DNA from: Ostreococcus lucimarinus
Lineage: Eukaryota
Direction: 5' to 3' (one strand)
Assembly (NCBI GenBank): GCA_000092065.1
Contig: CP000588.1
Length of the DNA stretch: 64,000 nucleotides
Shown here piece by piece: positions 25,975 to 29,707 of this stretch. A program made the translations under genes and the position numbers. The first letter of the stretch is position 1. Each line of letters opens with the position of its first letter. A model generated the notes under the pieces. It was not told the DNA's origin. It did no database searches and was given only the letters and a program-made list of their open reading frames with translations.

Positions 25975-26340
25975 TCACAGATACTTCTCGCACAAGTGCA
26001 ACAAATCGTCCACCTCGTCCTCCGTCAGCCTCCGCGCGCACTTCTCCACCACCGCGTGCACCGTCACCCGCTCCGTCGGTTTCAGATTGATCAGCTGCAC
26101 CACCTCCGCCTGCGTCAGCTCGATCGCCGCGATGTGTTCGATGAACAATCGCACGTTCTCGCGGTCCTGCGCCCCCGCCGGCGCCGCGCGCAGCGCGTCG
26201 TAGCACTCCATCTCCGTCGGGAACGGGTCGTGCGGCTGCGGGTACGTCGCCAGCCGTCCCGGCTCCCCCGCGCGCTCGCGCAGCAGGTCCAGGACCTCGA
26301 CGTTCGTCAGCAGGCCCTCGGCGACGCCGAGCACGCGCAT
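25975..26340 (-). CDS. RPC9: RNA polymerase III subunit RPC9 (Rpb4/C17/CGRP-RCP family)
   Basis: Reads LTNVEVLDLL...LTQAEVVQLINLKPTERVTVHAVVEKCARRLTEDEVDDLLHL, matching RPC9 (LTKPEKLQLVNIRPSSVVELHAIVEECDQRFSAEQLEEIL). Confidence 0.6.
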   Translation of the reverse strand: MRVLGVAEGLLTNVEVLDLLRERAGEPGRLATYPQPHDPFPTEMECYDALRAAPAGAQDRENVRLFIEHIAAIELTQAEVVQLINLKPTERVTVHAVVEKCARRLTEDEVDDLLHLCEKYL

Positions 26341-26502: not shown

Positions 26503-28602
26503 ATGGCGAGCGACGACGACGTCGATCCGCTGGACGCGTTCATGGCGACGCTCGACGTGCCGGCGAGCGGGACGCGCGACGACGCGCGCGCGACGACGAC
26601 GCGCGACGACGACGACGACGACGACGCGTTCGGACTGTCGATGGCGATGCTGGGCGCGCGCGCGGCGACGCGGCGCGCGACGGACGCGGACGCGGACGAG
26701 GAGGAGGAGGACGACGCGCGGGCGACGACGGCGAGCGACGACGACGACGACGCGGGCGACGCGCGAGGACGACGCGGACGACGAGACAGCCTGCGCGAGG
26801 TCGATCACGCGCGCGAGGAGTACGAAAAGTTTGAGCGCGTGACGTACGTCGCGCCGAAGGAGCTCGCGGACGTGGACGTCGGCGCGGCGCGGGCGGCGGC
26901 GGACGCGCGCGCGAGCGGCGGCGCGGAGGACGTCGCGCCGATCTCGCGGTTCGGTCAAGGCGGCGCGTTGGACGTCGATTGCCTGCGGGCGCTGCGGCGG
27001 ATGGGATACGAATCGCCGACCGCGGTTCAGGCGCAGTGCTTGCCGGTGATCTGGAGCGGGCACGATGCGTTGGTGATGGCGAAGACGGGGTCGGGGAAGA
27101 CGCTGGCGTTTTTGCTGCCGGCGTACGCGCAAATTTCCAGGCAAAGGCCGTTGACGAAGCGCGAGGGCCCGATCGCGCTCGTGCTCGCGCCCACGCGCGA
27201 ACTCGCGTCGCAGATCGCGAACGAGGCGCACAAGTTTACGAAATTTGGCGTATCGGGGGCGCGATGTTGCGCAATCTTCGGCGGCGTCTCCAAGCGCGAC
27301 CAATTCAAAAAGCTTCGCGCGGGAGCGGAGATCGTCGTCGCGACGCCCGGGCGTTTGGTGGACGTGCTGTGCATGAAGAATTCGACAAATTTACGTCGCG
27401 TCACGTACTTGGCGCTGGACGAAGCCGACCGAATGCTTGACATGGGTTTCGAAAAAATCGTACGCTCGATTTGTCAGGCGGTTCGTCCCGACAGGCAGTG
27501 CGTGATGTTTAGCGCCACGATGCCCGCGGCCATGCAGCGATTGGCTCGCGACGTTCTCGCGCGAGACGCTGTCACTGTCTCCATCGGTAACGTCGGAGGC
27601 GCGAATGAGGACGTGCGACAAGTCGTGTACGTCTTCGAAGACGACGCTCGCCGCGCGGCTTGGTTGTTTGAAAATCTCGGCGACGCCGTCGACGAAGGAC
27701 AAGCCATCGTCTTCGTCAATCACAAGTCGTCCGTGGAAGAGCTCGTGAACGAGCTCGCGACGCGCGGAATAAAAGCCGTCGCCTTGCACGGCGACTTGGA
27801 TCAAGCGCAAAGACAATTCGCGATGAAGGCTTTTAAGAGTGAGCACGCGCACGTGCTCGTGGCGACGGATGTCGCCGCTCGCGGACTCGACGTTGAGGCG
27901 ATTAAAACCGTCGTAAACTTCCACCCCGCGCGCGATATGTCGACGCACGTGCATAGAATCGGTCGCACCGGTCGCGCAGGTGCGCTCGATGGCCGTGCGT
28001 ACACCTTGTTCACCGCGCGTGATTCTGCAAAGTTCGCGCAGCAGTTGGAACAAAATTTGGAAGCCGCGGGCCAACCGGTGCCGCTCGATTTGAAGGCGCT
28101 CGCGCGCGGCACGTACAACAAACGCCCTAGAAGTGATCACGGCGGCGACGCACCTCGGCACGGCAAGGTCGGCGGTAGGGGACTTGGTTTCACATCGCAC
28201 CATCGGCCGAGCGCAGGCGGCGGCGCGTTCGGCGGTGGCCGCGGCGGCGCGGCGAGACCCGCGCCGAGCGCCGACTTTACCGCGGTACCGCCGCCATCAC
28301 AAACGCAGCAACCACAAGCGCCGAACGCCGCTGCGATCATCGCTCAGGCGCGCGCGAAAGCCGAGGCCATCGCGAAGCAGCTACAGGCGCCCGCGATGGT
28401 ATCCGTGCCGAACGCCGCTGCGATCATCGCTCAGGCGCGCGCGAAAGCCGAGGCCATCGCGAAGCAGCTACAGGCGCCCGCGATGGTATCCGTGCCTCCA
28501 CCGCCGCCGCCGGCGCCCGTCGGACCCGCTGCTGCTGCGGCGGCGGCGGCCGCCGCCATCGCGGCGCGCCTCGCGGCGCAAGCGCCTCCACCGAATCCGT
28601 GA
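26503..28602 (+). CDS. DDX42: DEAD-box ATP-dependent RNA helicase DDX42-like (SF3b-associated)
   Basis: Reads AKTGSGKT, PTRELA, DEADRMLDMGF, SAT, HRIGRTGRAG. Long collinear identity to DDX42 (GPIAxxxxPTREL..GAEIVVxTPGRL..NLxRVxYLxxDEADRMxDMGFE..VRPDRQ..FSAT..GxANEDVxQxV..VLVATDVAARGLD..IKTVxN..ARDxxTHxHRIGRTGRAG). ATG 26503 (MASDDDVDPL). The upstream 25723-26502 part of the ORF is antisense to RPC9. Confidence 0.8.
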   Translation: MASDDDVDPLDAFMATLDVPASGTRDDARATTTRDDDDDDDAFGLSMAMLGARAATRRATDADADEEEEDDARATTASDDDDDAGDARGRRGRRDSLREVDHAREEYEKFERVTYVAPKELADVDVGAARAAADARASGGAEDVAPISRFGQGGALDVDCLRALRRMGYESPTAVQAQCLPVIWSGHDALVMAKTGSGKTLAFLLPAYAQISRQRPLTKREGPIALVLAPTRELASQIANEAHKFTKFGVSGARCCAIFGGVSKRDQFKKLRAGAEIVVATPGRLVDVLCMKNSTNLRRVTYLALDEADRMLDMGFEKIVRSICQAVRPDRQCVMFSATMPAAMQRLARDVLARDAVTVSIGNVGGANEDVRQVVYVFEDDARRAAWLFENLGDAVDEGQAIVFVNHKSSVEELVNELATRGIKAVALHGDLDQAQRQFAMKAFKSEHAHVLVATDVAARGLDVEAIKTVVNFHPARDMSTHVHRIGRTGRAGALDGRAYTLFTARDSAKFAQQLEQNLEAAGQPVPLDLKALARGTYNKRPRSDHGGDAPRHGKVGGRGLGFTSHHRPSAGGGAFGGGRGGAARPAPSADFTAVPPPSQTQQPQAPNAAAIIAQARAKAEAIAKQLQAPAMVSVPNAAAIIAQARAKAEAIAKQLQAPAMVSVPPPPPPAPVGPAAAAAAAAAAIAARLAAQAPPPNP
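28321..28494. repeat. Perfect 87-bp tandem duplication (2 copies) inside DDX42 C-terminal coding region (29-aa repeat PNAAAIIAQARAKAEAIAKQLQAPAMVSV)
   Basis: 28321-28407 and 28408-28494 are identical base-for-base and in frame. Confidence 0.9.
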
Positions 28603-29457: not shown

Positions 29458-29707
29458 GTGCCGCGGCCGTTGGCGCTGTCGTGTAATGATGGGTATATAT
29501 ACACGCACAGTACATGACTTGGTGTCGTATACAGTACACACACGAGACGATCAGTGCGCGATCGTCGTCGCGTCGGTTCGCGGTGCCGCGGCCGTTGGCG
29601 CTGTCGTGTAATGATGGGTATATATACATGCACAGTACATGACTTGGTGTCGTATACAGTATACACACGAGACCATCAGTGCGCGATCGTCGTCGCGTCG
29701 GTTCGCG
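29458..29707. repeat. ~125-bp tandem duplication (2 copies, ~97% identical) carrying a TATA-box-like motif (gggtatatatac) in the divergent promoter between the 28645..29307(-) and 29864..31402(+) genes
   Basis: Copy 1 29458-29582, copy 2 29583-29707. Differences: cacgcac/catgcac, gtacacacacgagacg/gtatacacacgagacc. AT-richer than the surroundings. Confidence 0.8.

What the first reader, a model, noticed from the sequence alone, without database searches (positions are those of the whole stretch)
28321..28494. Perfect 87-bp in-frame tandem duplication inside the DDX42 C-terminal tail
Two base-identical 87-bp units encode a duplicated 29-aa Ala/Lys-rich helix (PNAAAIIAQARAKAEAIAKQLQAPAMVSV) just before a poly-Ala/Pro tail. 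Zero divergence suggests a very recent duplication, a copy-number-variable coding minisatellite, or an assembly artefact.
Basis: seen in the sequence. Interest (0 to 1): 0.5.

Follow-up and report, generated by a model that had tools for sequence, protein, structure and literature searches.

The report
Polymorphic 87-bp duplication in algal DDX42
A spliceosome-associated RNA helicase gene (DDX42/RH24 type) of an Ostreococcus lucimarinus-type marine picoalga carries a real, in-frame 87-bp tandem duplication that adds a second copy of a conserved 19-residue helix to its floppy C-terminal tail; wild populations carry both one-copy and two-copy versions, so it is an ordinary length polymorphism and not an assembly error.

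Summary
Window 28320-28496 is a perfect period-87 array: two 87-nt units plus a 3-nt GCC overlap. It lies in frame in an intronless 699-aa DEAD-box gene (26503-28602, + strand). The gene's best solved relative is human DDX42, and its best named relatives are plant RH24.

The adjacent gene is 100% identical to an O. lucimarinus CCE9901 protein.

The duplication is not an artefact. The copy1-copy2 junction occurs in 19 other contigs from different samples and assemblers. Thirteen contigs of the same species (over 99.5% identical in this gene) carry a single unit. Eight of ten long contigs sampled through the neighbouring gene carry two units.

The sister species and every other Mamiellales orthologue have one unit, so the duplication arose within this species lineage.

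Two-copy alleles sit on three gene haplotypes. On one of them, copy 2 has diverged by 3 nt (Gln to Asn). With within-species diversity of at most 0.47%, only about 0.4 differences are expected per 87 nt, so zero divergence does not show extreme recency.

No allele with three full units was seen. This is a biallelic in-frame duplication/deletion polymorphism, not a hypervariable minisatellite. AlphaFold2 models each unit as one helix in a disordered tail. The functional effect is unknown and probably mild.

The parts
26503..28602 (+). Intronless CDS (699 aa plus stop) of the DDX42/RH24-type DEAD-box helicase that contains the repeat
   Evidence: ORF and start codon. Pfam DEAD 3.7e-51 and Helicase_C 5.4e-29. 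Best PDB hit is human DDX42 8hk1_E, E = 3.4e-112. The exact protein is in the public collection as P0121.
26524..26544 (+). N-terminal DPLDAFM motif (aa 8-14), aligned to the region of human DDX42 that holds the SF3B1-anchoring helix alpha-3
   Evidence: Invariant in 28 orthologues. Aligns to human DDX42 residues 109-121. Helix alpha-3, residues 114-135, anchors DDX42 on SF3B1 (PMC9935549).
27019..27540 (+). DEAD domain (aa 173-346)
   Evidence: Pfam PF00270.
27682..27981 (+). Helicase_C domain (aa 394-493)
   Evidence: Pfam PF00271.
28320..28406 (+). Repeat unit 1 (87 nt; in codon phase 28321-28407 = aa 607-635, PNAAAIIAQARAKAEAIAKQLQAPAMVSV). AF2 helix at aa 609-627.
28407..28493 (+). Repeat unit 2, base-identical to unit 1 (aa 636-664). 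AF2 helix at aa 638-656. This unit is absent from one-copy alleles and from all other species.
28494..28496 (+). GCC: a 3-nt microhomology shared by the start of the unit and the sequence just after the array. It marks the duplication breakpoint.
   Evidence: Period-87 identity extends 3 nt past two full units. The sister species has TCG in place of the upstream CCG.
28525..28581 (+). Terminal Ala-rich helix (aa 675-693) carrying the AIAARL motif, a second and older related motif shared with Chlorella and Nannochloris orthologues
   Evidence: AF2 helix 675-693. Tail alignment. Motif alignment A2.

Best explanation
This is a genuine in-frame 87-bp (29-codon) tandem duplication in the disordered C-terminal tail of the DDX42/RH24 orthologue of an Ostreococcus lucimarinus-type picoalga. 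It segregates in natural populations next to the ancestral one-copy allele. Inferred origin: replication slippage or unequal sister-chromatid exchange at a 3-nt GCC microhomology, after the split from the sister species. Once two perfect 87-nt units exist, the same processes can delete one unit again, which would explain why one gene haplotype carries both states. Inferred effect: the protein gains a second copy of a roughly 19-residue Ala-rich helix whose core (AQARA[KR]AEAIA[KA]Q[LF]) is conserved as a single copy in all other Mamiellales orthologues. The tail therefore goes from two to three related helical motifs. The helicase core and the N-terminal SF3B1-anchoring motif are untouched. 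The variant is most likely neutral or mildly modulatory.
For: The perfect array is in frame. Gene identity rests on Pfam, RH24 best named hits, JGI 'DDX42' names and the PDB ranking DDX42 ahead of DDX46. Organism: the adjacent 121-aa protein equals O. lucimarinus CCE9901 XP_001419279.1. The 90% cluster of the protein holds 670/671-aa one-copy members and 699-702-aa two-copy members. At DNA level, two units occur in L001, L014-L019, L032, L047, L048, L056, L057, L059-L063, L065 and L066. One unit occurs in L004-L013, L021, L029 and L058. Sampling through the neighbouring gene, which is blind to repeat state, gave 8 two-copy and 2 one-copy contigs. Both states occur in MEGAHIT k141/k127 contigs; at k above 90 the array shares no k-mers between its units, so neither state can be produced from the other by collapse (inference). 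The sister species (92.5% nt identity) and the O. tauri, O. mediterraneus and other Mamiellales orthologues have one unit. Haplotypes: H1 carries both states, H2 and H3 only two copies, and H3 has copy 2 diverged by 3 nt. AF2 gives helices at 609-627, 638-656 and 675-693 in an otherwise low-confidence tail. A further 39-bp duplication flanked by an 8-nt direct repeat in L056 shows that the spot is prone to slippage.
Against: No reads are available for the window itself, so its own copy number rests on agreement with other assemblies. Metagenome contigs can be consensus or chimeric sequences, so haplotype assignments are approximate. Alleles with three or more units would fragment short-read assemblies and could be missed. 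No functional data exist. The helix is not significantly amphipathic (hydrophobic moment 0.235 against a shuffle mean of 0.208, p = 0.38). The tail matches no Pfam family above its cut-off and no solved structure at a significant E-value.
Confidence: 0.9

Rival explanations
1. Assembly artefact: the window's assembler traversed a graph loop once too often, or the one-copy contigs are collapses, so only one state really exists.
For: Perfect tandem copies shorter than a read or k-mer are a classic source of assembly error. The contigs with exactly the window's protein (L014, L015) are SPAdes contigs, whose k-mers are usually shorter than 87.
Against: The junction sequence cannot exist without a duplication, and it is present in 19 independent contigs from different samples and assemblers, including MEGAHIT k141 and k127. 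In L001, L016, L017 and L032 the two units differ at 3 positions, which a loop artefact cannot create. One-copy contigs also come from k141 assemblies, where the array has no repeated k-mers (inference).
Confidence: 0.03
2. Hypervariable coding minisatellite: the locus has many alleles (1, 2, 3, 4 or more units) with a high mutation rate, and assemblies show only the shortest ones.
For: Copy number varies. The same haplotype H1 carries both states, which suggests recurrent gain or loss. A neighbouring 39-bp duplication and a variable 125-bp intergenic array 1 kb downstream show local instability. Alleles with three or more units would break short-read assemblies (inference).
Against: Among 33 sequences examined (32 contigs plus the window) and 15 listed cluster members, only 1 or 2 full units occur. 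Contigs named 'contig_' and 'scaffold' (assembly method unknown) also show exactly two units.
Confidence: 0.1
3. Selected valency polymorphism: the extra helix changes how the tail binds a partner, and both alleles are maintained by selection.
For: The duplicated core is conserved across Mamiellales. Both alleles are common, and the two-copy state lies on three haplotypes. Copy 2 on haplotype H3 carries 3 substitutions against about 0.4 expected, one codon changed at two positions.
Against: There are no allele-frequency, geographic or functional data. The pattern fits neutral drift plus recurrent unequal exchange equally well. The CAG to AAT change may be a single multinucleotide event. The binding partner is unknown, and the human DDX42 tail is absent from the cryo-EM model (PMC9935549).
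Confidence: 0.08

Closest known systems
Human DDX42 (SF3b125) and plant DEAD-box RNA helicase 24 (RH24)
   Same: The DEAD and Helicase_C core is shared. The N-terminal DPLDAFM motif aligns to the region of human DDX42 that holds the SF3B1-anchoring helix. Human DDX42 is the best PDB hit (379 bits, against 345 for DDX46), and the best named hits are RH24.
   Different: The C-terminal tail is unrelated. The alignment to human DDX42 ends at about residue 580. Land-plant and fungal tails lack the AQARAKAEAIAKQL helix and end in basic ...S(G/R)W(D/N) sequences. The duplicated motif is confined to Mamiellales.
In-frame internal tandem duplications and coding minisatellites (for example FLT3-ITD, yeast FLO/adhesin repeats, mucin VNTRs; from my own knowledge)
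   Same: Head-to-tail arrangement, in-frame, short microhomology at the breakpoint, located in a disordered low-complexity region, copy number differing between individuals.
   Different: Only two full-unit states (1 and 2) were seen. The unit is a single conserved helix rather than a long array. The host gene is a housekeeping spliceosomal helicase, not a surface protein or a receptor.
FBP/FUBP1 N-terminal 'Nbox' helix that binds FIR/PUF60 RRM1-RRM2 (existence confirmed in PMC4843008; the sequence is recalled from memory)
   Same: From memory, the Nbox (…ALQRARQIAAKIGG…) resembles the algal terminal motif A.(K/R)AIAARL and, more loosely, the duplicated AEAIAKQL. Both sit in proteins linked to splicing factors.
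   Different: No tool supports the resemblance. A profile of the motif against all PDB chains found nothing below E = 1.8 and no FBP chain. It should be treated as a lead only.

Membership tests
DDX42/RH24 subfamily of DEAD-box helicases | DEAD (RecA1) and Helicase_C (RecA2) domains | tested here: met
   PF00270 at 3.7e-51 and PF00271 at 5.4e-29.
DDX42/RH24 subfamily of DEAD-box helicases | Closer to DDX42/RH24 than to DDX46/PRP5 or DDX5/17 | tested here: met
   PDB: DDX42 379 bits, DDX46 345, DBP2 311. All top named hits are RH24. JGI names cluster members DDX42. No reciprocal whole-genome test was possible.
DDX42/RH24 subfamily of DEAD-box helicases | N-terminal SF3B1-anchoring helix (DPL[DE]AFM) | tested here: met
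   Residues 8-14 are invariant in 28 orthologues and align to human residues 109-121. The helix's role comes from PMC9935549. DDX46 aligns from the same point, so this feature alone does not separate the two subfamilies.
DDX42/RH24 subfamily of DEAD-box helicases | Association with SF3b / U2 snRNP | not testable with these tools
   Needs biochemistry.
Copy-number-variable coding minisatellite (VNTR) | Head-to-tail tandem units of 10-100 bp inside a CDS, in frame | tested here: met
   87-nt unit, 2.03 copies, 29 codons.
Copy-number-variable coding minisatellite (VNTR) | Different copy numbers in different individuals of one species | tested here: met
   One-copy and two-copy contigs that are over 99.5% identical in the gene.
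Copy-number-variable coding minisatellite (VNTR) | Multi-allelic array (three or more units, many length classes) | tested here: not met
   No sequence with three full units among 33 sequences (32 contigs plus the window) and 15 cluster members. The only extra length class is a 39-bp partial duplication. Short-read assembly bias against long arrays remains a caveat.
Assembly artefact | Junction absent from independent data | tested here: not met
   The junction is present in 19 independent contigs. On one haplotype the units have diverged.
FBP Nbox-like RRM-binding helix | Detectable sequence similarity to the FBP Nbox | tested here: not met
   The profile search against PDB gave no FBP chain; best E = 1.8 to Npl4.

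The most novel reading that the evidence does not exclude
The 29-residue duplication is a selectively maintained polymorphism. It doubles a Mamiellales-specific helical docking motif in the tail of a U2-snRNP assembly helicase, and so tunes partner binding or condensate behaviour, and with it splicing, in different ocean populations of Ostreococcus. The excess divergence of copy 2 on one haplotype would then reflect adaptive subfunctionalisation.
Probability: 0.07. Interest if true: 0.5.

Novelty: new member of a known kind. Interest (0 to 1): 0.22.

Why it matters
The finding mainly serves as a quality-control and population-genetic marker. It shows that the perfect repeat in this assembly is biological. 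It also provides an easily typed length marker (plus or minus 87 bp) for O. lucimarinus-type populations in cultures and metagenomes. It points to a conserved but uncharacterised helical motif in the C-terminal tail of green-algal DDX42/RH24; the corresponding region of the human protein is absent from the cryo-EM model. It does not change current understanding of DDX42 or of tandem-repeat biology.

Tried and rejected
1. Amphipathic-helix reading. The hydrophobic moment of the unit is 0.235, against a shuffle mean of 0.208 (p = 0.38), so this is not supported.

2. Known domain in the tail. All Pfam matches fall below their cut-offs (best E = 0.049, 14 bits against a cut-off of 23.5). Searching PDB sequences with the tail gave only E of 0.8 or higher.

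3. FBP-Nbox or other solved helix-peptide analogue. The profile of the terminal motif against PDB gave best E = 1.8 to Npl4 and no FBP chain. The idea rests on memory only.

4. JGI metagenome scan with an 18-nt core of the unit. It returned 36 loci, but only 6 are the algal gene; the other 30 are chance matches in GC-rich contigs.

5. Reference strain CCE9901. I tried to reach its chromosome through the neighbouring gene. The 10 places returned were all ENA metagenome contigs, so the copy number in the reference strain remains unknown.

6. 'Very recent' dating from zero divergence. This was rejected because only about 0.4 differences are expected even at the deepest within-species split.

Full report
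**Observation**

Tandem Repeats Finder reports a period-87 array at window 28320-28496 with 2.0 copies, 100% matches, no indels and score 354. The repeat finder gives the two units as 28320-28406 and 28407-28493 at 100% identity. Extending the self-identity base by base shows that it covers exactly 177 nt: two units plus 3 nt (GCC).

Ninety consecutive matches at one offset cannot be chance. Among the four TRF arrays scoring at least 120 in the 64-kb window, this is the only perfect one.

**The gene**

- The array lies in a continuous + strand ORF. Taking the ATG at 26503, it encodes 699 aa ending at the stop codon 28600-28602.
- Pfam finds DEAD (aa 173-346, 3.7e-51) and Helicase_C (aa 394-493, 5.4e-29).
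- The best solved relative is human DDX42 (8hk1_E, 3.4e-112, 379 bits), ahead of DDX46 (345 bits) and DBP2 (311 bits).
- That alignment starts at residue 3, where SDDDVDPLDAFMA aligns to human SDSDDDPLEAFMA. This region includes the helix that anchors human DDX42 on SF3B1 (PMC9935549).
- DPLDAFM is invariant in 28 orthologues.
- All top named database hits are plant 'DEAD-box ATP-dependent RNA helicase 24', and JGI names cluster members 'DDX42'.
The repeat occupies residues 607-664, in the tail beyond the helicase core.

**The organism**

The adjacent 121-aa RPC9/Rpb4-like protein (window 25978-26340, - strand) is identical to O. lucimarinus CCE9901 XP_001419279.1. The O. tauri and O. mediterraneus orthologues of the helicase are 65% and 58% identical. 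The window is therefore from an O. lucimarinus-type Ostreococcus.

**Real or artefact**

The 90%-identity cluster of the protein has 91 members. The listed members fall into two length classes:

- 670/671 aa with one unit: P0122 on at least 53 contigs, plus P0129 and P0134.
- 699-702 aa with two units: P0121 (the exact window protein), P0001, P0128, P0130, P0131 and P0132.

I fetched the DNA for these and counted units directly.

| State | Loci | Count |
|---|---|---|
| Two units | L001, L014-L019, L032, L047, L048, L056, L057, L059-L063, L065, L066 | 19 contigs |
| One unit | L004-L013, L021, L029, L058 | 13 contigs |

The contigs come from many samples and from several assemblers: MEGAHIT k141 and k127, SPAdes, and others.

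I also sampled the locus through the neighbouring gene, which is blind to repeat state. Eight of the ten long contigs returned had two perfect units, and two had one.

A junction between units cannot be assembled unless reads contain it. At k above 90 the 177-nt array shares no k-mers between its units, so k127/k141 contigs of either state should reflect real molecules; this step is inference. In L001, L016, L017 and L032 the two units differ at three positions (CAG to AAT, giving Gln to Asn, plus GTG to GTA). A loop artefact cannot produce that. The artefact reading is rejected.

**Age and history**

- The sister species has one unit (P0002/P0003, L002/L003/L041; 92.5% nt identity over aligned codons).
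- Every more distant Mamiellales orthologue also has one unit. One unit is therefore ancestral, and the duplication arose within this species lineage.
- Within the species, gene SNPs define three haplotypes. H1 carries both states: 13 one-copy contigs, plus the window, L014, L015 and L048 with two copies. H2 (L018, L019, L047, L056) and H3 (L001, L016, L017, L032) carry only two copies.
- Either the duplication predates these haplotypes and was later lost on part of H1, or it moved between haplotypes by recombination. The data do not decide between these.
- Mean pairwise diversity in the gene is 0.17% and the maximum is 0.47%. Even a duplication as old as the deepest split would be expected to show only about 0.4 differences between two 87-nt units.
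- Zero divergence is therefore uninformative about extreme recency. The three differences on H3 are, if anything, an excess.

**Mechanism of origin (inferred)**

The unit starts with GCC, and the sequence just after the array also starts with GCC. This 3-nt microhomology is typical of slippage or unequal exchange. In the sister species the upstream triplet is TCG instead of CCG, so the GCC microhomology appears only in this species.

A further variant (L056, P0124, 713 aa) adds a 39-bp duplication of APAMVSVPPPPPP, flanked by an 8-nt direct repeat GGCGCCCG. This shows that the spot is prone to slippage. No sequence had three full units, although such alleles would be hard to assemble from short reads.

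**What is duplicated**

A tail alignment shows that the unit's core, [MI][VIL]AQARA[KR]AEAIA[KA]Q[LF], is conserved as a single copy in all Mamiellales orthologues. A second, related motif, A.(K/R/Q)AIAARL, lies near the C-terminus and is shared with Chlorella and Nannochloris RH24.

AlphaFold2 with a 28-sequence alignment gives the following for the tail:

- a confident helicase core;
- a disordered stretch at 544-607 (pLDDT below 50);
- three helices at 609-627 (unit 1), 638-656 (unit 2) and 675-693 (terminal motif), with block-mean pLDDT of 56-85.

The two-copy allele thus has three helical motifs where the ancestral form has two. The helix is not significantly amphipathic. The tail matches no Pfam family above its cut-off and no solved structure at a significant E-value.

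The C-terminal tail of human DDX42 is absent from the cryo-EM model, in which the helicase domain ends at residue 643 (PMC9935549). No partner can therefore be inferred by homology. From memory, the motif resembles the FBP 'Nbox' helix that binds FIR/PUF60; the existence of that interaction is confirmed in PMC4843008. The profile search did not support the resemblance.

**Verdict**

This is a real, in-frame, biallelic tandem duplication/deletion polymorphism in the disordered tail of a conserved spliceosome-associated helicase. It probably has little or mild functional consequence. It is a new instance of a very familiar kind of variation. It is useful as a strain marker and as a pointer to an uncharacterised conserved tail motif, but it would not surprise a specialist.

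Noticed in passing
window 29458-29707: A second tandem duplication: 125-bp unit, 2 copies, 97-98% identical. It lies in the AT-richer intergenic region between the divergently transcribed 220-aa gene (- strand) and the 512/587-aa gene (+ strand), about 0.9 kb downstream of the DDX42 stop codon. Its copy number varies from 1 to 3 between contigs of the same species, with units differing by 4-20 mismatches.
   Followed up: partly
L056 (JGI Ga0453792_0014676), corresponding to window ~28470-28520: The allele P0124 (713 aa) has two 87-bp units plus an extra 39-bp tandem duplication (APAMVSVPPPPPP twice). The duplication is flanked by the 8-nt direct repeat GGCGCCCG, and its two copies differ by one base. 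It was seen on a single 3.3-kb contig.
   Followed up: partly
L001, L016, L017, L032 (equivalent to window 28471, 28473, 28494): On haplotype H3 the second unit differs from the first by CAG to AAT (Gln to Asn, two changes in one codon) and by a synonymous GTG to GTA. That is three differences where about 0.4 are expected. P0128 has Lys to Thr in copy 2.
   Followed up: partly
window 26603-26780 (N-terminal acidic region of the same gene): There are further length polymorphisms in the acidic N-terminal region: poly-Asp of 7 or 8 residues, poly-Glu of 4 or 5, and an allele (P0133, 614 aa) that lacks 57 residues between TRDDA and GDARG. TRF also reports an imperfect 58-bp repeat at 26657-26776.
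   Followed up: no
L002 and L065 (ENA ERZ10646630 contig_16119, 278 kb): The same metagenome contig holds the sister-species version of this locus at 46-58 kb (one unit, 653-aa protein) and the lucimarinus-type version at 221-230 kb (two units, 700 aa), in the same orientation. It is probably a chimeric contig that joins two species.
   Followed up: no
C-termini of orthologues P0020, P0072, P0110, P0111 versus P0098, P0119 and the window: Land-plant, Chlorokybus and Rhizopus DDX42/RH24 proteins carry basic ...RKRPSGWD / RRSRWD / RKPSRWN sequences in the tail (at the very C-terminus in P0020 and P0110). From memory these resemble U2AF-ligand motifs. Chlorophyte orthologues, including this one, instead end in an A.(K/R)AIAARL helix.
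   Followed up: no
N-termini of P0004, P0009, P0016 versus the window protein: Several Mamiellales orthologues, including O. mediterraneus, have an N-terminal extension of about 60 residues (…LR.EF.RW….L..FL…) that is absent from the window protein and from O. tauri.
   Followed up: no
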